The translations under genes were made by a program, and so were the position numbers. From a virus (Duplodnaviria > Heunggongvirae > Uroviricota > Caudoviricetes), in the IMG/VR virus record IMGVR_UViG_3300025765_000001: a DNA stretch of 64,000 bases, one strand, 5' to 3'. Under the pieces are notes generated by a model. That model was not told the origin of the DNA, did no database searches, and saw only the letters and a program-made list of their open reading frames with translations. This document shows, in pieces, positions 9,620 to 55,326 of this stretch; position 1 is the first letter of the stretch, and each line of letters starts with the position of its first letter.

Positions 9620-10644
9620 ATGCATGTGCATTTCAGGGATTACGATATGTTGGCAAAAGTGGCAGTGGAGACGGCGAACTGTTTTGCCGGGGCACTGGTC
9701 ATGCCGAACCTCGTACAACCGGTTACTACGGTCGAGCAATGTTTGGGGTACTGTGATCGTATCAAGGCTATCACGGACAGGTGTAAGAAGTTTACCCCTT
9801 ATATGACGCTCTACCTCCAGATCAATGACTTCTTCCAAGACAAAGACAAACTGAAGGCCGTCAAATTGCTGCACGGCGACTGCATTAAAGCATTCAAGTT
9901 CTACTCCAGAGGCATGACCACCAACAGCGATCATGGGGTTGATCTAAACGATCTCAATTTACTCAAGGTACTTGAGGCGATGTAGGAGGTCGGAATCATC
10001 CTTTGCGTCCACGGAGAGACGGACGGTTTTGTGATAGATCGAGAGATGGAATTTTGCGACCGCTACTATCGGTTCTGGGCCGAGAAGTTTTCAGGTCTCA
10101 AGATCGTCATGGAGCATATTACTACCGAAACAGCCGCACTTGTACTAGATGCCTATTCGCCACGATCACCGTTCATCATCTCTTCCTGACGCTGGATAAC
10201 GTGATCGGCGGTCTGATGCAACCTCACTTGTTTTGTAAACCAATTGTGAAACGCCCAGCAGATAGGGCCGCTCTTTAGAAGTTAGCGATTGGGGTTCACC
10301 CCAAGGTGATGCTCGGCACCGACTCGGCCCCACATCCCAAGAATAAAAAGGAGTGTTCTGGTTGTGCGGCTGGCGTGTACACAGCCCCTTTTGCTTTGCC
10401 GCTCTTAGCTCAGTTCTATGAGTGCAAGAAACTAGATGGCACTCTTACCTTGAGCGTGGAGTACGCTCTACGCTAGTTCGCTTCCTCCAACGCCAGGAAG
10501 ATATACGATCTTCCCGATGTGTCCAAAGAAGTCTTCTTGATGAAGAGGAAACAAACGATTCCCACCGTCACCGTAGCCGGTGTGGTGCCCATGTGGGCAG
10601 GTGAAAAAATCGATTGGTTCGTGGAACACGTTCTGAAGAAGTAA
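9620..10644 (+). pseudogene. pyrC: dihydroorotase (PyrC, E. coli type II class) pseudogene: three in-frame TAG codons and one frameshift
   Basis: Pieces align collinearly with E. coli PyrC: 'HVHFRDYDML...VMPNLVQPVTTVEQ' ~ 'HLHLRDGDML...VMPNLAPPVTTVEA'; 'ILCVHGE' ~ 'LLVHGE'; 'ATITVHHLF...[13 protein letters not shown]' ~ 'ATITPQHLMF...VRPHLYCLPILKR'; 'MLGTDSAPH' ~ 'FLGTDSAPH'. In-frame TAG codons at 9986, 10276 and 10486. Frameshift near 10140-10160. Confidence 0.7.
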
Positions 10645-10672
10645 AAACACCCGGCGTGGCCGGGTGTTTTTA
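10643..10672. terminator. bidirectional rho-independent terminator between convergent genes
   Basis: A-run, stem CACCCGGC / GCCGGGTG, then T-run. Confidence 0.6.
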
Positions 10673-11038
10673 CTTCTTCAGAACCGCTTTCGCTGCTTTC
10701 ACGAAATCGCTCTGATCTGCGGCCAAGAAACCGGTTTGATAGCCCGGCTCCTCGACGCCGGTGATGACCGGTGGTTGTGGTCTCGGCGGTGGTATCGTGT
10801 CAACAACGGTGAATGTCAAAGTTTCACCAGGATCAGACCTATTGCCGTTATTGTCGATGTCTATTAGCCAGAGCGAGATATTCGAGCCTTCGGTTAGGTC
10901 TAGGGTGAAATTCCGCAGGTCTGGGGTGAGGGTGTAAACCGTTTCGTTGCCGTCTACAATGACATGCAACTCTCTGGTTACTACATCACCGGCCCCAGGT
11001 GCGGGTATAGACAGTGTATATCTGAGTTGATCGGCCAT
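10670..11038 (-). CDS. hypothetical protein
   Basis: 122-aa ORF with a Pro-rich stretch. Confidence 0.4.
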   Translation of the reverse strand: MADQLRYTLSIPAPGAGDVVTRELHVIVDGNETVYTLTPDLRNFTLDLTEGSNISLWLIDIDNNGNRSDPGETLTFTVVDTIPPPRPQPPVITGVEEPGYQTGFLAADQSDFVKAAKAVLKK

Positions 11039-16580: not shown

Positions 16581-16671
16581 CTTTGCTCTAGAAAAACCTA
16601 GAGCCATCATCTATACTACTAGCACTACGACCAGTGGCTCGACCTGTTCCGCAAGAAGGAATGGATCGAGA

Positions 16672-17133
16672 ATGAATGCAACGAAACTGCTGTCCATAGG
16701 AAAGACAGCCGAAAGATTGGGAGTGCATGTTGATACTCTCAGGGAATGGGACAAAGACGGCAAACTGACCCCGGTGAAGACCCCCGGCAACCATCGCCGC
16801 TACCGCATCGAAGACATCGAAGCGTTCTGCGGCAACATGGTTGAGAAGAAGGATGACGCAAAGGCAGTCAGAGTCGCCCAAGAAAAACCTCAAAATAAAT
16901 TCAAGGATGTTTTGCATTTTGCCGATGATTACATTATAATACTTTGTCTGACTGTGGATACTCTACGATTTTGGCGGGACAAAGACGTATTTGACCTGAT
17001 TGGCACAATCGGAGGACACAACATTGATGAAGTTTTAGGTGTAATTAGTGAAAAGTCAAGTAAGGTGGACAGAGGACGAGGTAAATCTTCTCAAAGAACA
17101 CGGAGCGACAAAACTCCTGCACGAACTGGTTGA
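16672..17133 (+). pseudogene. tnpA: IS607 TnpA N-terminal MerR-like HTH domain (first part of a split tnpA; read-through into the inserted sequence)
   Basis: 'LSIGKTAERLGVHVDTLREWDKDGKLTPVKTPGNHRRYRIEDIE' matches the IS607 TnpA N-terminal HTH. Sequence after ~16870 continues into the inserted element. Confidence 0.5.
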
Positions 17134-18013
17134 GCTACTACCGAGACATACGGCAATGGGTATCTCGATCAAGAGAAAGCGGCTCGGCATAGAACTGCCA
17201 GATGAATACCTGTCAAGGCAAGGAGCATACGGCAGGTCATTTGTAAATAATGACAACTTGTGTAAGACGGATCACAGCCTCACGCTAAACGATCTTGATG
17301 ATACGACCAAACAGGTTCTTCTTGGCAGCGTCTTAGGCGACGGCAGTATCAAGAAGAATGGAAGCGGTGGGAAGATGAGGGGCAAGTGGAGTCAAAGGAA
17401 CTTCATCTTCTACGACATGCACAGAAGTCCACAATTTGACTACACGGACTGGAAGGCATCCAAACTCCAAACATTCTTAGCCAAGTCAAGCCGCAACGAT
17501 GAGAAGAACAGGTCAGAGACTTGGACGGTATCGCATCCGATCTTCACCATGTTGCGTGATAAGTTTTATCCGGCGATGACGAAGTGTAACAAGTGCATGA
17601 TCCCCGCCGACATCGTTGAGCAGATGGATGAGTTGGCGTTGTTGGTGTGGTACTTTGATGACGGCTACATCGGTGTGCGTCCTGATGGATTTGACACCAA
17701 AGGTCATCACAAACGACCGCAACCAAGAATTGCGGCAAAAGGTTGGAACTACGAAGACCTGTGCAGAGCCGCCGAGATACTGAACAAGAACTTGGGGTTG
17801 CATCTGTACGTTCTTACATTCAAGCACAGGGACGGTGTTGGTAAAGAAGTCAAGATACCAGCAAAAGACAGGGATTACTTGTTTCAGCTTTGGCAGCAGT
17901 TGGCGAAACAACACGGCGTACCTGAGTGTATGATGTACAAACTGAACCTGCACGAATGGAAAGATGTACTTGTGTATAAGCAGCCACGAACAGAAGCAGA
18001 AGGGCGACCTTGA
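17048..18013 (+). CDS. LAGLIDADG-family homing endonuclease (two LAGLIDADG motifs)
   Basis: 'LLGSVLGDGSIKKNGSG' and 'LLVWYFDDGYIGVRPDG' motifs. No terminal His-Asn and not in frame with the flanking tnpA pieces, so probably intron-encoded or free-standing rather than an intein. Confidence 0.55.
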   Translation: MKSQVRWTEDEVNLLKEHGATKLLHELVELLPRHTAMGISIKRKRLGIELPDEYLSRQGAYGRSFVNNDNLCKTDHSLTLNDLDDTTKQVLLGSVLGDGSIKKNGSGGKMRGKWSQRNFIFYDMHRSPQFDYTDWKASKLQTFLAKSSRNDEKNRSETWTVSHPIFTMLRDKFYPAMTKCNKCMIPADIVEQMDELALLVWYFDDGYIGVRPDGFDTKGHHKRPQPRIAAKGWNYEDLCRAAEILNKNLGLHLYVLTFKHRDGVGKEVKIPAKDRDYLFQLWQQLAKQHGVPECMMYKLNLHEWKDVLVYKQPRTEAEGRP

Positions 18014-18405
18014 GCGACAAAATGGGCGGGTTCTCGCCTACTGCGTCAAGAAACAGTACCAAGTAGTAAAATCCTACGAGGAAGTCGGCTCTGGCATGTG
18101 CGACACCCGACCAAAACTTCATCAAATCTTCAAGTTGGTTGAAGAGAAGCAGGTGGATAAGGTCATCGTAGAACACAAGGACCGGCTGACCCGGTTCAAC
18201 TTCAACTTTCTGGCAGCGTTCTTCGCCAGTCATGGTGTTGAGGTTGAATGGACAGAGGAAGTGCTTGGGAACAAGCGGTACGAGGACGAGTTAGTGGAAG
18301 ACATGCTCACGCTCATGTCCTCGTTCTCAAACAAAATCTACGGCAAACGATCCGCAGAGAACCGCAAGAAGAAAAAGTTAGAGAAGTTGGCGGCAAAGGA
18401 GCAAG
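17964..18405 (+). CDS. tnpA: IS607 TnpA serine-recombinase catalytic domain (second part of split tnpA; 3' end approximate)
   Basis: 'CISSHEQKQKGDLERQ...VDKVIVEHKDRLTRFNFNFL...SNKIYGKRS' matches the IS607 TnpA catalytic core. The ORF runs on in frame to 19088, overlapping tnpB, so the true stop is uncertain. Confidence 0.5.
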
Positions 18406-19545
18406 GTGAAGGTACAGAGGGGCTTCAAGACGGAGATCAGACCAAGCGACAAGCAAAAGACGCTGCTGCTCAAGAATGCAGGAGCGGCACGCTGGGCGTA
18501 CAACTACGGTCTGAGCCAGAAGAAGATCGCTCTGGAAGCCAAGACGAAGATACCCAACGCCATCGAACTGCACCGTCGCTTGAACGAGTTGAAGAAGACG
18601 GAAATACCGTGGGCTTACGAGTGCAGCAAGTGCAGTTTTCAAGAAGCACTCAGAAACCTCGACAGGGCTTTCAGCAACTTCTGGACAGCACGGAAAACCA
18701 AGAGACGCATGGGCTTCCCGAAGTTCAAGAGCAAGAAGAACGGCATCGGCGGCTTCCGGCTCACAGGGACGATCATCGTGTCCAGCGACCGCATCCAGTT
18801 GCCCCGTCTCGGCACGATCCGGCTCAAGGAGAAGAACTACCTGCCGACCGACGCCAAGATACTCAACGCCACGGTAACGGAGAGGGCTGGCAGGTGGTTC
18901 GTGAGCGTACTGGTGGAGATGGAACAGCCGGAATACACCGGCATCAAGGACAAGAAGGACGTGGTGGGCGTGGACTTGGGCATCAAGACGCTGGCGACCG
19001 TGAGCGACGGCACGGTGTACGAGAACCCGAAACCACTCAAGACCCGATTACGCAAACTACGGCGGCTACAACGAGCAGTCGCCCGTAAGGTCAAGGGCAG
19101 TAGAAACCGCAGGAAGGCGGCAGACCGTGTGGCTCGTTTGTACCTGAAAGTGAGCAACATCCGTAAGGACACCTTGCACAAGATGACGACATGCTTGACG
19201 AAAACCAAGTCGGCGGTCGGTATCGAGGACTTGAACGTGTCGGGGATGCTCAGGAACAGGTGCTTGGCACGGTCTATCGCTGATCTCGGTCTTGGTGAAT
19301 GGCGGCGGCAGATGACCTATAAGGGCGTCTGGTACAAGTGCCACATCGCCGTGGCGGACAGGTTCTTCGCCTCCAGCAAGACGTGTAGCGTCTGCGGGGA
19401 GATCAACGAGAACCTGACGCTGGCTGACCGAGAGTGGGTCTGTGAAGGTTGTGGGACGCACCATGACCGGGACTTCAACGCAAGCAGTAATTTGGAATAC
19501 GTTGCCGCCAGTTCGACGGAAACGATAAACGCCTGTGTAGTGTGA
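18406..19545 (+). CDS. tnpB: IS605/IS607-family TnpB (OrfB) RNA-guided-nuclease-like protein
   Basis: RuvC-like core and C-terminal zinc finger 'CSVCGE...CEGCGTHHDRDFNASSNL'. Length 379 aa. Confidence 0.8.
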   Translation: MKVQRGFKTEIRPSDKQKTLLLKNAGAARWAYNYGLSQKKIALEAKTKIPNAIELHRRLNELKKTEIPWAYECSKCSFQEALRNLDRAFSNFWTARKTKRRMGFPKFKSKKNGIGGFRLTGTIIVSSDRIQLPRLGTIRLKEKNYLPTDAKILNATVTERAGRWFVSVLVEMEQPEYTGIKDKKDVVGVDLGIKTLATVSDGTVYENPKPLKTRLRKLRRLQRAVARKVKGSRNRRKAADRVARLYLKVSNIRKDTLHKMTTCLTKTKSAVGIEDLNVSGMLRNRCLARSIADLGLGEWRRQMTYKGVWYKCHIAVADRFFASSKTCSVCGEINENLTLADREWVCEGCGTHHDRDFNASSNLEYVAASSTETINACVV

Positions 19546-19690
19546 TGGCTCTGGCTTGAGGGCGTACCTCAAGTGAAACTGTTTCGTATGCAGCAGGAAT
19601 GGAACAGGAAATCGGGGTCATTTTGTGCCTTCCAGATTTCCATAGGTTTTCAGGAACGGTTCGACTCCCTACGGTCCCACTAGATGATAG

Positions 19691-21294: not shown

Positions 21295-21540
21295 TTTCAT
21301 TTTAGGAGACCGATCATGTGGGGCGTAAACAAGAAGGCGATCCTAGTTGAGACAAGCGATTACTACAGCGAGGACGATACGCCTTCGGTCTGTACTACGG
21401 TGATCGAGTCGCTATCCGATTTGGCGACCTGCCTGGGTAATGACTTGGCGGGAGATCATCATGCGATGGAGGCCCTGCTGAAGAACTAGCACTTCCTCAA
21501 GGCCCTGGACCAACGTGGTTTTCGTGACGTAGAGAAGATC

Positions 21541-21849
21541 GTGTCTGCCGTTGAGAAGGTGAAGGCCGGAACTAGGTTCTTCATGTACAACGGCGAGAGC
21601 TACCCTTCGATTCGTGAGATCGACATCTTCAACAAGGACCGCTATGTTGCTGAACAGCTTGCGGACGTGGAGAAGTCCTCGCTCAAGGAGATCAATGGGA
21701 CGGCATATCGATACGTGCTGGCCGCTCGCAAGAGAATCGATGCTGCGAGCAAGGCAAGAGCAGCCAAGGCGAAGAATTGCCAAAAGAAGCTTAAGAAAAA
21801 GGAACTAGAGAAGGCCAGAGAGTTATTGAAGGAAGCTGGTGAGTTATGA
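21541..21849 (+). CDS. hypothetical protein (Lys-rich C-terminus)
   Basis: 102-aa ORF. Confidence 0.4.
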   Translation: MSAVEKVKAGTRFFMYNGESYPSIREIDIFNKDRYVAEQLADVEKSSLKEINGTAYRYVLAARKRIDAASKARAAKAKNCQKKLKKKELEKARELLKEAGEL

Positions 21850-25567: not shown

Positions 25568-25700
25568 TTGCAAAGACCGTCCCTGATGCGGGTGTAACTC
25601 AGTGGTAGAGTGCCATATGATGCGGATATTTGCCCTCGGTTCTAGATGGAGCATACCTCAGAAGGTTTTCGATCCTTCTGAACGAGGTATCGGTGTCTAG
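25568..25700 (+). ncRNA. structured non-coding region: degenerate tRNA 5' half followed by mutually exclusive hairpins
   Basis: Starts like a tRNA (GCGGGTG TA ACTC AGTGGTAG AGT) then loses tRNA structure. ATACCTC at ~25627 pairs with GAGGTAT at ~25663, which alternatively pairs with GATACCTC at ~25680. Confidence 0.3.
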
Positions 25701-28612: not shown

Positions 28613-29190
28613 TTTGGGGCGGCTCCCTTGCAAGGTGAAATTGCGAAACTGGTCAGGCCGGAAGGTGTAGCCATAAACAGCGTGCCAATGATGATTGTTG
28701 GGGGTCTGCTAATAGTCGAGGAGATGATCCGAGACTATTGCCCAACGCAGCCTGCCTCTTTGGTTACAAAGATCGGGCTGGTAGCTGTCTTTGTTGGCAT
28801 GTGTTTGTTTTGATAGACCTCTAACCAACAAGGTGATTAAGATGTTGTGCTGACATGAAAGACTTGGCCCACACGAGGCCAGACCAAGGCAGAATCACAG
28901 TCAATCTATATGACCCGATTATGTTGAGAGCGATTGATAAGACGTTGAAAGCAGCCGGTTTTAACTCCTACGTCTTTTCCAAAACGGCTGTAGTCGTAAA
29001 CATACCCAGGCCGACTTCGGAAGACAGAGACCAAGTTGTAGCTCACGTCAAAAAGTTGACAGAAGAACAACCGTCTTTAGAAGAAGTACGGTGTGGACCC
29101 CAAGACCAAGGCGACGTGGCACTGCGTTCGTAAGGAGTCCGCCAACGGTAAGGAAATCATGAAACTCACCAAGAAGTACAGTTTGGCCGC

Positions 29191-40759: not shown

Positions 40760-40762
40760 CTT

Positions 40763-40860
40763 GCGGGATGGTGCAGGATACGGTTCCTTCGCCAAATGGT
40801 ATGGCACTAGCTGTCAAAGCTGGAGTTGTGGGTTCAATTCCCACAGGTTCAAATCCCGTA
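40763..40860 (+). ncRNA. ~95-nt tRNA-like element with two consecutive T-arm-like hairpins
   Basis: GTGGG TTCAATT CCCAC followed by ACAGG TTCAAAT CCCGT. Ends GCGGGAT...ATCCCGT could pair. Confidence 0.25.
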
Positions 40861-40892
40861 TCTGTTTATTTCTCCCGCTACTTACATAAGGA

Positions 40893-45070: not shown

Positions 45071-47179
45071 ATGTCAGTACCAGAGATGTTGGAAAGACGG
45101 GTGTGGCCCATCGAGAAAGCCCTGCAACGCATCCTTGTTGGGCAGAGGAACGTCATCCGCCGTGTGACTATGGCGTTATTCGCTGTCGGACAGCGGGACT
45201 TCTATCCAGATGGTACACGATTTTTAGGAACAGGCCACGTTCTATGCGAAGGCGGTGTAGGAACAGGAAAATGTCTTGGTAAAGGCACCCCCGTCTTGAT
45301 GTTCGACGGAACTATAATTCCCGTTGAATCCGTTAAGACTGGAGACCTGTTGATGGGACCAGATTCTCTGCCCAGGAAGGTTATTGCTCTCGGACACGGT
45401 TTTGGAGAGCTATATCGGGTGATACCAAAAAAGGGCGATTCGTATGTTGTCAATGACGAGCATATCCTGTCATTTAAGATGACTAGTCGTGGTCGAAATA
45501 GGCAGGGCAATTTTCCACGTTCTGGCGACAATGTTCCTGGCATGATTTATAACATGTCAGTCAAAGAATACTTGGGAAGGTCAGAGCGATTCAAGAGTCA
45601 TGCCAAGGGATATAGAGTTGGCATCGAGTTTGATGAGCGAATTGTGCCACTGGACCCGTATTTTTTTGGCGTGTGGTTGGGAGATGGGATCAGTCGCACC
45701 GCACAGGTTTGCAATACGGATAACGAAATTATTGCGTACATTCGTAAGATGGCAAACAAGTACAGGCTGCGGTTCAACACTTACACAGCAAGCGGGAAAG
45801 CTCCGATTCACTCGTTGTGGGGGAAAAAATTCCATCCTAATGCGATATTGAGTGCTTTACGTGAAATGAACGTATTGCAAAACAAACATGTTCCACAAAT
45901 ATACAAAGCAAATTCACGACGAGTGAGATTGCAAATTTTGGCCGGACTGATGGACACAGATGGCAGTCTGTCGGCTGGTTGCTATGACTTCGTAAACAAG
46001 TCAAAACAACTTGCCGATGATGTGGTTTATTTGGCGAGGTCTCTAGGATTCGCCGCTTATGTCAAACCATGCACCAAGGTTTGCAAAAACAACGGTAAAA
46101 AGGGTCGATATTACCGAGTATCGATTTCTGGAAATTTATCGGAAGTTCCGGTTCGCATTGCCAAGAAAAAGGCTTCTCTTCGTCGGCAGAAGAAGAATGT
46201 GTTGGTGACTGGAATCAAAGTAGAACCAGAGGGCTATGGAGAATACTTTGGTTTCGAGATTGAGGGACCAGACAGGCTGTTTCTCCTGGGAGATTTCACG
46301 GTCACACACAATACCGTTCTCTGTAAAGCACTTTCTAGGTTGCTGGCTGGCAACTCCAAACGAGTATCGGGAATGCCCGACGCACTTGCCAGCGATATTA
46401 CTGGTTGCGAGATCATCTTGCTGACCGGCGATACCAAGACGGTCCAGGGGCCGCTATTCTGCAACGTTATGCTGGCTGACGAGATCAACCGTTTCCCGCC
46501 CAAAGCCCAAAATGCGTTCATCGAAGCACTGGCTGAAGGCTGTGTCACCATCGCAAATGAAACTATTCGTTTGAAGCAGCCTTTCTTCTGCCTCGCTACA
46601 CAGAACCCGACTGAGCAAAAAGGCACGAGTCGTCTACAAGAGGCTCTGTCAGACCGGTTTATGTTCAAACTCGTCATGCGTGAGACTACAGAGCAGGAGA
46701 AGATTGATATCGCAAAGCGGACACACCACTTCGATGTCACGAACCTGAATCCTGTAATTACGACAGACGAAGTATACGAAGCTAGAGAGTATTTCTTCAA
46801 CAATACTCACGTCAGCGATGAGGTACGTCGCTACGCTGCTCGCTTGCTTCGTGCAATCAACCATCCAGCGGAATACAAACTTCTTGAGAAGGAACGGGCC
46901 TTGCTTGCGGGCGATAACATCTTCAAGCAAAAGCCAGCGGTCAACGACCGTGCCATGCTGCATATGGAAGGTGCGGCGATGATGGAGGCGGTTATGAGTG
47001 GGAGGGACTACGTGATCCCCGCCGACGTTGCTGCTGTTGCGGCAGATGCCCTCCGTGCCCGTCTTCTCCTGTCTGAGTCTAGTTTGCACCTTCTGGCGGA
47101 ACTACACCCAGGCAAAACCGAAACCGAGTTGGTGGACTATTTCATAGACGAAACTCTGTCTAGGGTGCGACACACTTGA
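45071..47179 (+). CDS. MoxR-family AAA+ ATPase containing a LAGLIDADG intein inserted in the Walker A P-loop
   Basis: Extein 'HVLCEGGVGTGK|...|TVLCKALSRLLAG' reconstitutes 'GVGTGKT'. Downstream MoxR motifs 'LLADEINRFPPKAQNAFIEALAEG...ATQNPTEQKGTSRLQEALSDRF'. Confidence 0.8.
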   Translation: MSVPEMLERRVWPIEKALQRILVGQRNVIRRVTMALFAVGQRDFYPDGTRFLGTGHVLCEGGVGTGKCLGKGTPVLMFDGTIIPVESVKTGDLLMGPDSLPRKVIALGHGFGELYRVIPKKGDSYVVNDEHILSFKMTSRGRNRQGNFPRSGDNVPGMIYNMSVKEYLGRSERFKSHAKGYRVGIEFDERIVPLDPYFFGVWLGDGISRTAQVCNTDNEIIAYIRKMANKYRLRFNTYTASGKAPIHSLWGKKFHPNAILSALREMNVLQNKHVPQIYKANSRRVRLQILAGLMDTDGSLSAGCYDFVNKSKQLADDVVYLARSLGFAAYVKPCTKVCKNNGKKGRYYRVSISGNLSEVPVRIAKKKASLRRQKKNVLVTGIKVEPEGYGEYFGFEIEGPDRLFLLGDFTVTHNTVLCKALSRLLAGNSKRVSGMPDALASDITGCEIILLTGDTKTVQGPLFCNVMLADEINRFPPKAQNAFIEALAEGCVTIANETIRLKQPFFCLATQNPTEQKGTSRLQEALSDRFMFKLVMRETTEQEKIDIAKRTHHFDVTNLNPVITTDEVYEAREYFFNNTHVSDEVRRYAARLLRAINHPAEYKLLEKERALLAGDNIFKQKPAVNDRAMLHMEGAAMMEAVMSGRDYVIPADVAAVAADALRARLLLSESSLHLLAELHPGKTETELVDYFIDETLSRVRHT
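45272..46312 (+). other. intein (347 aa) with LAGLIDADG homing-endonuclease domain
   Basis: Begins 'CLGKGTPVLMFDG' (block A) directly after GTGK. Contains 'FFGVWLGDGIS' and 'ILAGLMDTDGS'. Ends 'FTVTHN' followed by extein Thr (+1). Confidence 0.75.
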
Positions 47180-54437: not shown

Positions 54438-54701
54438 ATGAAGCCAGTTCTATCTCATACACGCCATATTGCGAAGGCCATTTCTTACCGTATTCTCGGC
54501 ACCATCGCAACTATATTGATCGGCTGGGTAGTAACCGACAGTATAGAAGTCGGGACTTCTCTTGGAATCCTCGACATTACTGTTAAGACTTTCCTCTATT
54601 ACCTTCATGAACGGGTCTGGTATAGAATCCCGTTTGGAGTAAATAGAGATGATAATATGCATCCAACCAGTGGAACAGTGGACGGGAGCGACCGATCTTG
54701 A
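54438..54701 (+). CDS. small membrane protein (DUF2061-like)
   Basis: 'AKAISYRILGT...WYR' pattern, two TM helices. Confidence 0.4.
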   Translation: MKPVLSHTRHIAKAISYRILGTIATILIGWVVTDSIEVGTSLGILDITVKTFLYYLHERVWYRIPFGVNRDDNMHPTSGTVDGSDRS

Positions 54702-54864
54702 CAAAGCGACATACCTCGAAATTCTTGATGGTGTGGACCCAGATCAAGAGGCCAATAGCTTCTACTACGGCGAAAACCACTTGCTACTTATTGAGCATTT
54801 CATTAAACTAGGGGCCAAGGTAGTAGAGAACCCGATCAAGACCTACTTTGTATAGGAGAGGGTC

Positions 54865-55326
54865 ATGTCGATCTTCGAGAGGGAATCCAAGAAGGATTTC
54901 GATTTCGAGAAGGACATCCTGGGGCTTCAAATGGTGAGGCCCTATAAGCACGAGGGTCGCTGGGTTTTCGATGACCAAGAAGGACTTCGCCGGGATATCG
55001 CACCCGCTGGTGCTACTGTAGCGACTCTCTCTCCAATTGTGGTCGGGGCCGACCGCTTAATTATGGAGGGAACCAGGAGGAAGGGAATCGAAAATCCAGA
55101 AAGTGGATTTCGTCTCTACTTCTCAGATAAGGCGTTTCCTGATGCCGATGTAGAGTTCCGCTGGGAGCGGGAATGCTATGACGGGCATATCTACAACGTT
55201 TTACCATGCGGAGATAAAATTGCCATTCCCTCCGACCAACAGGCTTGGATTTGTCCTTACCTGATGTTATACTACAAACAACCGCCGAAGATTCTATTTC
55301 TGAAGATCGAGGCTGATGGGAGATAA
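54865..55326 (+). CDS. hypothetical protein
   Basis: 153-aa ORF. Confidence 0.45.
   Translation: MSIFERESKKDFDFEKDILGLQMVRPYKHEGRWVFDDQEGLRRDIAPAGATVATLSPIVVGADRLIMEGTRRKGIENPESGFRLYFSDKAFPDADVEFRWERECYDGHIYNVLPCGDKIAIPSDQQAWICPYLMLYYKQPPKILFLKIEADGR

What the first reader, a model, noticed from the sequence alone, without database searches (positions are those of the whole stretch)
9620..10644. Well-conserved dihydroorotase gene inactivated by three in-frame TAG codons plus one frameshift
The amino-acid sequence across all four pieces still aligns closely with E. coli PyrC, so the decay is recent, or the gene is still expressed by suppression. All three internal stops are TAG, which resembles amber-recoded or suppressor-dependent genes in some large phages.
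Basis: seen in the sequence. Interest (0 to 1): 0.55.

Follow-up and report, generated by a model that had tools for sequence, protein, structure and literature searches.

The report
Decayed dihydroorotase gene in huge phage
This is a dead copy of a nucleotide-synthesis gene (pyrC) in a 464-kb phage genome, broken by three TAG stops and two frameshifts, and the same phage carries its own TAG-reading suppressor tRNA just outside the window.

Summary
The pyrC remnant spans 9568-10644 and has five lesions: a +1 A insertion in an A-run at 9603-9608, TAG at 9983, a 10-nt deletion at about 10151, TAG at 10276 and TAG at 10474. Two related phage contigs (L001, L003) carry an intact pyrC at the same position, with sense codons where the window has TAG. 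The window is part of a 463,644-bp contig, and three assemblies give identical sequence.

With the lesions repaired by hand, the protein still passes the curated PyrC model and keeps all catalytic motifs, so the decay is recent. The frameshifts make it a pseudogene whatever happens at TAG.

A good tRNA(CUA) lies 4.6 kb beyond the window's right end and is conserved at the same site in a relative. Two otherwise intact, conserved genes in the window each carry one in-frame TAG (21487, 57368). No convincing in-frame TAA or TGA was found. TAG is nevertheless a normal terminator for many genes.

The likely picture is partial amber suppression that lets TAG mutations persist. pyrC itself is dead.

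The parts
9527..9558 (+). Hairpin plus T-run (GACGCCCGG..CCGGGCGTC TATTTTT) that ends the upstream gene. It is conserved in relative L001.
   Evidence: Read directly from the sequence and aligned with L001. The simple terminator scan did not list it.
9559..9570 (+). GGAG ribosome-binding site (9559-9562) and the original ATG start (9568-9570) of pyrC.
   Evidence: The frame from this ATG reads MSVENTFSGIVVKKPL and stops at TGA 9616-9618.
9603..9608 (+). Lesion 1: a run of six A that most likely gained one A (+1 frameshift). Removing one A gives GIVVKSPYDMHVH, which matches VVVKSPYDMHVH in the relative.
9605..10150 (+). Body of pyrC, first half, in the +1 frame relative to the start codon. Motif codons are intact: HxH at 9623-9631, the lysine of AFKFY at 9890-9904, CVHGE at 10004-10018, MEHITT at 10109-10126.
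9983..9985 (+). Lesion 2: in-frame TAG. Both relatives have Glu here; L001 has GAG, so this is a single G-to-T change.
10151..10152 (+). Lesion 3: site of a 10-nt deletion relative to L001 (CTGGACCACG is missing). The frame shifts, and the old frame runs into TGA at 10187-10189.
10153..10644 (+). Body of pyrC, second half, back in the frame of ATG 9568. ATITVHH is at 10159-10179, TDSAPH (the Asp motif) at 10318-10335, VVPMWAG at 10582-10602. The final TAA is at 10642-10644.
10276..10278 (+). Lesion 4: in-frame TAG. L001 has AGG (Arg) and L003 has Gln at this position.
10474..10476 (+). Lesion 5: in-frame TAG. L001 has GCT (Ala) and L003 also has Ala.
10648..10675 (.). Hairpin plus T-run (ACACCCGGC GTG GCCGGGTGT TTTT) between pyrC and the convergent minus-strand gene. 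It is conserved in L001.
21316..21849 (+). Context: an otherwise intact conserved gene with a single in-frame TAG at 21487-21489. Homologs are continuous and have Pro or Lys at that position.
56900..57697 (+). Context: a two-domain gene with a single in-frame TAG at 57368-57370. The conserved WNYRV motif lies before the TAG and IHEVHY after it, in the same frame. Six homologs are single continuous proteins.

Best explanation
The region 9568-10644 is a unitary pseudogene of a class II (homodimeric-type) dihydroorotase, PyrC. An ancestor of this huge-phage lineage acquired the gene, most likely from a Campylobacterota-like source, as an accessory nucleotide-metabolism gene. Two related phages still keep it intact at the same position.

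In this 464-kb phage the gene has taken five independent disabling hits:
- a +1 insertion just after the start
- three TAG nonsense codons
- a 10-nt deletion in the middle

No full-length enzyme can be made. Translation from the original ATG stops after 16 codons. Even with every TAG read through, the body's frame ends at TGA 10187, before the catalytic Asp motif.

The decay is recent, because all motif codons survive and the repaired protein still passes the curated PyrC model.

A second, less certain inference concerns why all the stops are TAG. The phage carries its own amber-suppressor tRNA(CUA), so TAG substitutions are partly masked and can persist, whereas TAA and TGA substitutions are purged. 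That would also explain the single in-frame TAGs in two otherwise intact genes nearby.
For: Shown directly:
- The five lesions and their coordinates.
- The repaired translation scores 309.1 bits on TIGR00856 (cutoff 292.95). It aligns end to end with solved dihydroorotases, best 3pnu at E = 3.6e-78.
- L001 (about 70% nucleotide identity over 4.2 kb) and L003 carry intact pyrC between the same neighbours, with sense codons at all three TAG sites and no indels.
- The window is 100% identical to ENA ERZ27245623 k141_14709 (463,644 bp), to JGI 3300009594 contigs and to Logan SRR5747427 contigs over all overlaps. JGI contig Ga0114941_100001 covers the pyrC remnant.
- Another decayed host-type gene lies just left of the window. 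It is GDP-mannose-dehydratase-like, truncated at the N terminus and frameshifted.

For the suppressor link:
- A tRNA with anticodon loop CU-CUA-AA has a perfect acceptor stem and scores 54.9 bits on the Rfam tRNA model (L089 18255-18330, minus strand).
- An ortholog sits at the same position in relative L096, with one compensatory acceptor-stem change.
- In-frame TAGs occur in two conserved, otherwise intact genes.
- In 81 kb, 9 of 28 TAG-ended ORFs are followed by coding-like in-frame sequence, against 1 of 67 TAA- or TGA-ended ORFs (Fisher P = 5e-5).
- All 5 homology-verified internal stops are TAG (P about 0.02-0.04).
Against: - The branch-specific non-synonymous rate of pyrC in the window's lineage is not higher than that of neighbouring genes. 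dS is saturated, so relaxed selection could not be shown.
- All three assemblies appear to come from one sequencing run (my inference: the Logan assembly is of run SRR5747427 and all three agree at 100% over their overlaps). They do not exclude an intact minority allele in the population.
- For this gene alone, three of three stops being TAG is expected by chance about 10% of the time.
- Four of the nine TAG cases are simply adjacent genes in the same frame where TAG clearly terminates, such as IF-1 before LigA.
- TAG is not depleted as a terminator: 28 of 95 ORFs end in it.
Confidence: 0.9

Rival explanations
1. pyrC is still expressed as a functional enzyme. The phage's tRNA(CUA) reads the three TAGs as an amino acid, and the two frame changes are bypassed by ribosomal frameshifting or by starting at ATG 9620.
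For: A conserved tRNA(CUA) exists in the genome. All catalytic motif codons are intact. The A-run contains the slippery-looking A_AAA_AAG.
Against: - The first shift needs +1, whereas A_AAA_AAG promotes -1, which leads into the third, non-PyrC frame.
- The second shift is a 10-nt deletion with no slippery motif. Both relatives are simply in frame there.
- ATG 9620 has no ribosome-binding site, and starting there would remove the strand before HxH.
- Even then the frame ends at TGA 10187.
Confidence: 0.03
2. The lesions are artefacts of assembly or sequencing, or belong to a defective minority genome. The real phage has an intact pyrC.
For: The first frameshift lies in a homopolymer. All assemblies appear to derive from the same sample or run.
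Against: - Assemblies from three different pipelines agree base for base over 14-20 kb stretches.
- A 10-nt deletion and three point changes to TAG are not typical errors.
- Other genes nearby also show real decay or in-frame TAG, backed by homology.
Confidence: 0.04
3. It is a plain pseudogene, and the TAG-only pattern is coincidence. The tRNA(CUA) has nothing to do with these codons, and the two other TAG-bearing genes are also just freshly dead.
For: - P(3 of 3 TAG) is about 0.1 for pyrC alone.
- TAG is a normal terminator for about 30% of ORFs, including IF-1 and Ro60.
- The region holds other decaying genes.
- The TAG positions are not conserved in relatives.
Against: - All five verified internal stops are TAG (P about 0.02-0.04).
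- TAG-ended ORFs are far more often followed by coding-like in-frame sequence than TAA- or TGA-ended ones (P = 5e-5).
- The suppressor tRNA is conserved with a compensatory change, which argues that it is in use.
Confidence: 0.35

Closest known systems
Class II homodimeric dihydroorotase PyrC (TIGR00856; solved structures 3pnu from Campylobacter jejuni and 1j79 from E. coli)
   Same: The repaired translation matches end to end, above the curated cutoff. HxH, the lysine, two further His motifs and the Asp motif are all encoded.
   Different: The reading frame is broken five times. The closest sequences are phage-borne copies and Campylobacterota PyrC rather than E. coli. Phage-borne pyrC is rare: only 4 weak records in 50,697 phage records. 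Several of those look to me like host DNA rather than phage, which I did not check.
TAG-recoded (genetic code 15) phages with Sup-CTA tRNAs, such as crAss-like phages and phAss-1 (PMC9523058, PMC10607447, PMC11210395)
   Same: The phage encodes a tRNA(CUA) and has in-frame TAG in a subset of conserved genes. About half of predicted code-15 phages carry such a tRNA (PMC11210395, read).
   Different: In-frame TAG is rare here: a handful in 81 kb. TAG remains a common true terminator. This is a 464-kb phage from an environmental metagenome whose habitat I could not establish, not a gut phage. pyrC is not made intact by reading TAG as sense.
Decaying host-derived accessory (auxiliary metabolic) genes in large phages
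   Same: A host-like metabolic gene sits as its own unit between two hairpins, is intact in relatives and is degraded in one lineage. A second example, a dehydratase remnant, lies nearby.
   Different: Every nonsense lesion is of the one stop type that the phage's own suppressor tRNA could mask.

Membership tests
Dihydroorotase, homodimeric type (PyrC, TIGR00856) | Full-length sequence match above the curated family cutoff | tested here: met
   309.1 bits against a cutoff of 292.95, profile positions 2-340 of 341, for the hand-repaired translation.
Dihydroorotase, homodimeric type (PyrC, TIGR00856) | Metal-binding and catalytic residues: HxH, carboxylated Lys, two further His, Asp. The residue roles come from my knowledge of E. 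coli PyrC. | tested here: met
   Codons for HVH, AFKFY, CVHGE, MEHITT and TDSAPH are present and aligned with solved dihydroorotases.
Dihydroorotase, homodimeric type (PyrC, TIGR00856) | An uninterrupted reading frame able to give the whole barrel | tested here: not met
   Two frameshifts and three TAG. It is a member by descent, not a working member.
Unitary pseudogene | Intact orthologs at the same genomic position in relatives | tested here: met
   L001 and L003.
Unitary pseudogene | Several independent disabling lesions that do not compensate one another | tested here: met
   Five lesions. The two indels are 546 nt apart, and the conserved body between them is in the shifted frame.
Unitary pseudogene | Relaxed selection on the lineage | tested here: inconclusive
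   The ratio of the window-branch dN to the mean of the relatives' branches is 1.9 for pyrC. Neighbouring genes give 0.95-3.5. dS is saturated.
Gene of a TAG-recoded or amber-suppressing phage | tRNA with a CUA anticodon encoded by the phage | tested here: met
   L089 18255-18330 (minus strand), 54.9 bits, 4.6 kb beyond the window's right end. Conserved in L096. No credible one lies inside the window.
Gene of a TAG-recoded or amber-suppressing phage | The gene becomes a complete ORF when TAG is read as sense | tested here: not met
   The frameshifts remain. The TAG-as-sense ORF is only 10003-10644.
Gene of a TAG-recoded or amber-suppressing phage | In-frame TAG in other conserved genes of the same genome | tested here: met
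   Genes 21316-21849 and 56900-57697.
Gene of a TAG-recoded or amber-suppressing phage | TAG depleted as a terminator | tested here: not met
   28 of 95 ORFs end in TAG. IF-1 ends at its profile end on TAG, and the Ro60 end agrees with homologs. Only 81 of 464 kb were available.
Programmed ribosomal frameshift site | A slippery motif of the right direction, conserved in relatives | tested here: not met
   A_AAA_AAG would give -1 but +1 is needed. There is no motif at the 10-nt deletion, and the relatives are in frame.

The most novel reading that the evidence does not exclude
This lineage of huge phages (about 460 kb) runs a partial or timed amber-suppression regime. It uses its own conserved tRNA(CUA), perhaps together with a nearby RF1-like protein that lacks domain 1 and has PHL in place of the PxT codon-reading motif. 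TAG still ends many genes. However, TAG inside genes is read through often enough that such codons persist or are used for regulation. The TAG-only nonsense spectrum of the dying pyrC would then be a mutational footprint of that regime. It would be a possible snapshot of an early stage on the way to full TAG reassignment.
Probability: 0.4. Interest if true: 0.65.

Novelty: new member of a known kind. Interest (0 to 1): 0.4.

Why it matters
By itself this is a routine pseudogene call and should be annotated as such. There are three points of wider interest:
- Related huge phages carry an intact pyrC, which is a rare accessory gene for phages.
- The genome encodes a conserved amber suppressor while still using TAG as a normal stop. 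If read-through is confirmed, this is a useful intermediate case for how stop-codon reassignment begins in phages.
- Gene callers using the standard code split at least two real genes here at TAG.

Tried and rejected
- Near-identity DNA search of the phage collection found nothing close. Peptide and DNA pattern scans of IMG/VR also found nothing close. Ro60 gave only distant IMG/VR relatives.
- An exact look-up of the glycosyltransferase failed, probably because the called start differs.
- The 'tRNA-SeC (tca)' at 40782-40852 is not an opal suppressor. Three of its seven acceptor pairs are mismatched, and it sits inside a Y-RNA-like fold.
- Low-threshold ARAGORN 'cta' hits at 25610 and 62876 have no Rfam support, and one lies inside the IleRS gene.
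- No paralog of the suppressor exists among the phage's tRNAs (best 68% identity), so the amino acid it carries could not be inferred.
- A dN/dS test for relaxed selection failed because dS is saturated.
- My impression that the minus-strand candidate with TAG at 59963 is TnpB-like was not supported.
- The apparent frameshift in the minus-strand gene at 58234-57880 could not be verified; no family hit.
- More distant homologs of the suppressor's neighbouring gene have no tRNA beside them.
- The overlapping ORFs at 16.6-19.6 kb are a mobile-element insertion, not frameshift errors.

Full report
**What is in the sequence.** Translating 9500-10700 in three frames shows a dihydroorotase-like protein spread over two frames.

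- A GGAG at 9559-9562 and an ATG at 9568 open a frame that reads MSVENTFSGIVVKKPL and stops at TGA 9616.
- The conserved body starts in the +1 frame as KSPYDMHVHFRD, directly after a TAA at 9602.
- The body runs through TAG 9983-9985 to about 10150.
- The homology then continues in the frame of ATG 9568 (LFATITVHH...), through TAG 10276-10278 and TAG 10474-10476, to TAA 10642-10644.

The true start is 9568, and there is a second frameshift near the 5' end.

**What the gene is.** A hand-repaired translation scores 309.1 bits on TIGR00856 (pyrC_dimer, cutoff 292.95), covering profile positions 2-340 of 341. It aligns end to end with solved dihydroorotases. The best is Campylobacter jejuni 3pnu (E = 3.6e-78), and E. 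coli 1j79 gives E = 6e-55. The codons for HxH, the lysine, CVHGE, MEHITT and TDSAPH are all intact.

**Relatives.** A search of 5.8 billion proteins gave one outlier at 60% identity (P0001). After it came thousands of PyrC sequences at about 50% identity; every named hit near the top is from Campylobacterota.

- P0001 lies on a 4.2-kb JGI contig (L001). That contig aligns with the window over its whole length at about 70% nucleotide identity. It has the same upstream gene, the same two hairpins and the same three downstream genes.
- A metagenome scan found a second syntenic relative, L003. It has an intact pyrC followed by the same genes and the start of the same tRNA array.

The base-level alignment shows each lesion against an intact ortholog:

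| Lesion | Window | L001 | L003 |
|---|---|---|---|
| TAG 9983 | TAG | GAG (Glu) | Glu |
| TAG 10276 | TAG | AGG (Arg) | Gln |
| TAG 10474 | TAG | GCT (Ala) | Ala |
| about 10151 | lacks 10 nt | has CTGGACCACG | no frameshift or stop |
| 9603-9608 | six A | AAGAG here; reads VVVKSPYDMHVH | contig starts too late |

Removing one A from the run restores GIVVKSPYDMHVH, which matches VVVKSPYDMHVH in L001.

**Is the sequence reliable?** The window is 100% identical to three sets of contigs:

- ENA ERZ27245623 contig k141_14709 (463,644 bp; the window corresponds to 272,659-336,658)
- two JGI 3300009594 contigs
- Logan SRR5747427 contigs

JGI contig Ga0114941_100001 covers the pyrC remnant itself. 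Three pipelines agree. They probably used the same reads, so population variants cannot be excluded.

**Why it is a pseudogene.** From the original start, translation ends after 16 codons. ATG 9620 has no ribosome-binding site. In that frame, even with TAG 9983 read through, the ORF ends at TGA 10187, before the Asp motif. The run A_AAA_AAG would promote a -1 slip, but a +1 shift is needed. The 10-nt deletion has no slippery context, and the relatives are simply in frame there. A working enzyme would need two unprogrammed frameshifts plus three read-throughs.

**How old is the decay?** All motif codons survive and the family cutoff is still passed, so it is recent. A three-taxon comparison gave no excess non-synonymous change on the window's branch relative to neighbouring genes. 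The ratio was 1.9 for pyrC against 0.95-3.5 for the neighbours, and dS was saturated. That fits recent decay but does not prove it.

**Is 'all TAG' meaningful?** For pyrC alone it is not. TAG makes up 43-52% of possible single-base nonsense changes in this gene, so three of three has P of about 0.08-0.14. The wider context changes that assessment.

- *Suppressor tRNA.* The window has 44 tRNAs by both ARAGORN and Rfam, and none has a CUA anticodon. Extending 9 kb to the right through the ENA contig revealed a tRNA with anticodon loop CU-CUA-AA. It has a perfect 7-bp acceptor stem and scores 54.9 bits. It lies 4.6 kb beyond the window's end (L089 18255-18330, minus strand).
- *Conservation of that tRNA.* The relative from the sample that gave L003 has a tRNA(CUA) at the same position, between the same methyltransferase gene and the same 233/245-aa protein gene. 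It shows one compensatory acceptor-stem change.
- *Gene 56900-57697.* It carries TAG at 57368 between the nearly invariant WNYRV motif and IHEVHY, in one frame. Six homologs are single continuous two-domain proteins.
- *Gene 21316-21849.* It carries TAG at 21487. Homologs at 74%, 52% and 50% identity are continuous, with Pro or Lys at that site.
- *Codon-usage scan of 81 kb.* Of 28 TAG-ended ORFs, 9 are followed by at least 40 coding-like in-frame codons. The figures are 0 of 25 for TAA and 1 of 42 for TGA (Fisher P = 5e-5). Four of the nine are adjacent genes in the same frame where TAG plainly terminates.
- *Verified internal stops.* All five that are backed by homology are TAG (P about 0.02-0.04).

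**Against full recoding.** TAG ends about 30% of ORFs.

- The IF-1 homolog ends on TAG exactly at its profile end.
- The Ro60-like gene's TAG end agrees with distant homologs.
- The in-frame TAGs are not conserved in relatives.
- In-frame TAG is rare, only a handful in 81 kb.
- I could read only 17% of the genome, and none of it holds structural genes.

**Best reading.** pyrC is a recently dead accessory gene (confidence about 0.9). The TAG-only pattern, together with the TAGs in two live-looking genes, is best explained by partial amber suppression from the phage's own tRNA, which makes TAG substitutions less harmful. My confidence in that second step is about 0.4-0.5. The rival is coincidence in a region that is decaying anyway. 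A GDP-mannose-dehydratase-like remnant, truncated and frameshifted, lies just left of the window.

**Comparison with what is known.** Phage TAG recoding with Sup-CTA tRNAs is established (PMC9523058, PMC10607447). About half of predicted code-15 phages carry such a tRNA (PMC11210395, read). This case differs in that TAG is still a frequent terminator and in-frame TAG is rare. As a finding, the pyrC remnant is a new member of a known kind.

Noticed in passing
L089 18255-18330 (minus strand), about 4.6 kb beyond the window's right end; ortholog at L096 1598-1673: An amber-suppressor-type tRNA (anticodon CUA) with a perfect acceptor stem, 54.9 bits on the Rfam tRNA model. It is conserved at the same position in a related phage, with one compensatory stem change.
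   Followed up: yes
window 21316-21849 (+), TAG at 21487-21489: A conserved gene of unknown function with one in-frame TAG. Homologs at 50-74% identity are continuous, with Pro or Lys at that site. The source's gene calls split it in two.
   Followed up: yes
window 56900-57697 (+), TAG at 57368-57370: A two-domain gene (the C-terminal domain matches phrog_21321) with one in-frame TAG between the conserved WNYRV and IHEVHY motifs. Six homologs are single continuous proteins.
   Followed up: yes
window 40761-40883 (+): ARAGORN's 'tRNA-SeC (tca)' has 3 of 7 acceptor pairs mismatched. It sits inside a long closing stem with a tRNA-like core and gives a weak hit to Deinococcus Y RNA (fold z = -3.4). 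It is probably a YrlA-like Y RNA that partners the Ro60/TROVE gene at 2446-4371.
   Followed up: partly
L089 13721-14359 (+), just beyond the window's right end: A 212-aa release-factor homolog, closest to RF1 (187 bits, profile positions 133-345 of 361). It lacks domain 1, has GGQ, and has PHL where RF1 has the PxT codon-reading motif. It lies 4 kb from the tRNA(CUA).
   Followed up: partly
window 16620-19658: A 3-kb insertion relative to L003. It holds a MerR-type HTH ORF, a LAGLIDADG endonuclease ORF, a serine-recombinase-like ORF and a TnpB (OrfB_IS605) gene. It looks like an IS607-type element whose recombinase gene is interrupted.
   Followed up: partly
window 45071-47179 (+): A MoxR-type AAA ATPase carrying Hint and LAGLIDADG domains (an intein), followed by VWA and BatA-like genes.
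   Followed up: no
window 55798-55887 and 56171-56265 (+): Two unusual tRNAs. One has a long variable arm and anticodon UAU. The other has a 24-nt insertion in the anticodon loop after CUUA.
   Followed up: partly
L092 5019-5722 (1.8-2.5 kb left of the window's start): A remnant of a GDP-mannose/dTDP-glucose dehydratase-like gene. It lacks the first ~80 profile positions and has a frameshift, so it is a second decayed host-type gene.
   Followed up: partly
window 57880-58234 (minus strand): An ORF that seems to change frame near 58060 (..FLLNKL | EKGQVDWSFLLGEITGE..). It may be another frameshifted gene. No family match was found to confirm it.
   Followed up: partly
window 60382-63168, 28855-29133; L092 6713-6931: Translation-related genes in the phage: a full IleRS, a 92-aa fragment resembling ribosome recycling factor, and a full-length IF-1 that ends on TAG three codons before the in-frame LigA start.
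   Followed up: partly
L089 20082-20178 (minus strand): A group II intron domain V/VI match (60.6 bits), beyond the window's right end.
   Followed up: no
window 54649-55326 (+), TAG at 54853-54855: A 68-aa ORF ends on TAG three codons before the in-frame start of a DUF6717 gene. Both sides look coding. It is unclear whether this is one gene or two.
   Followed up: partly
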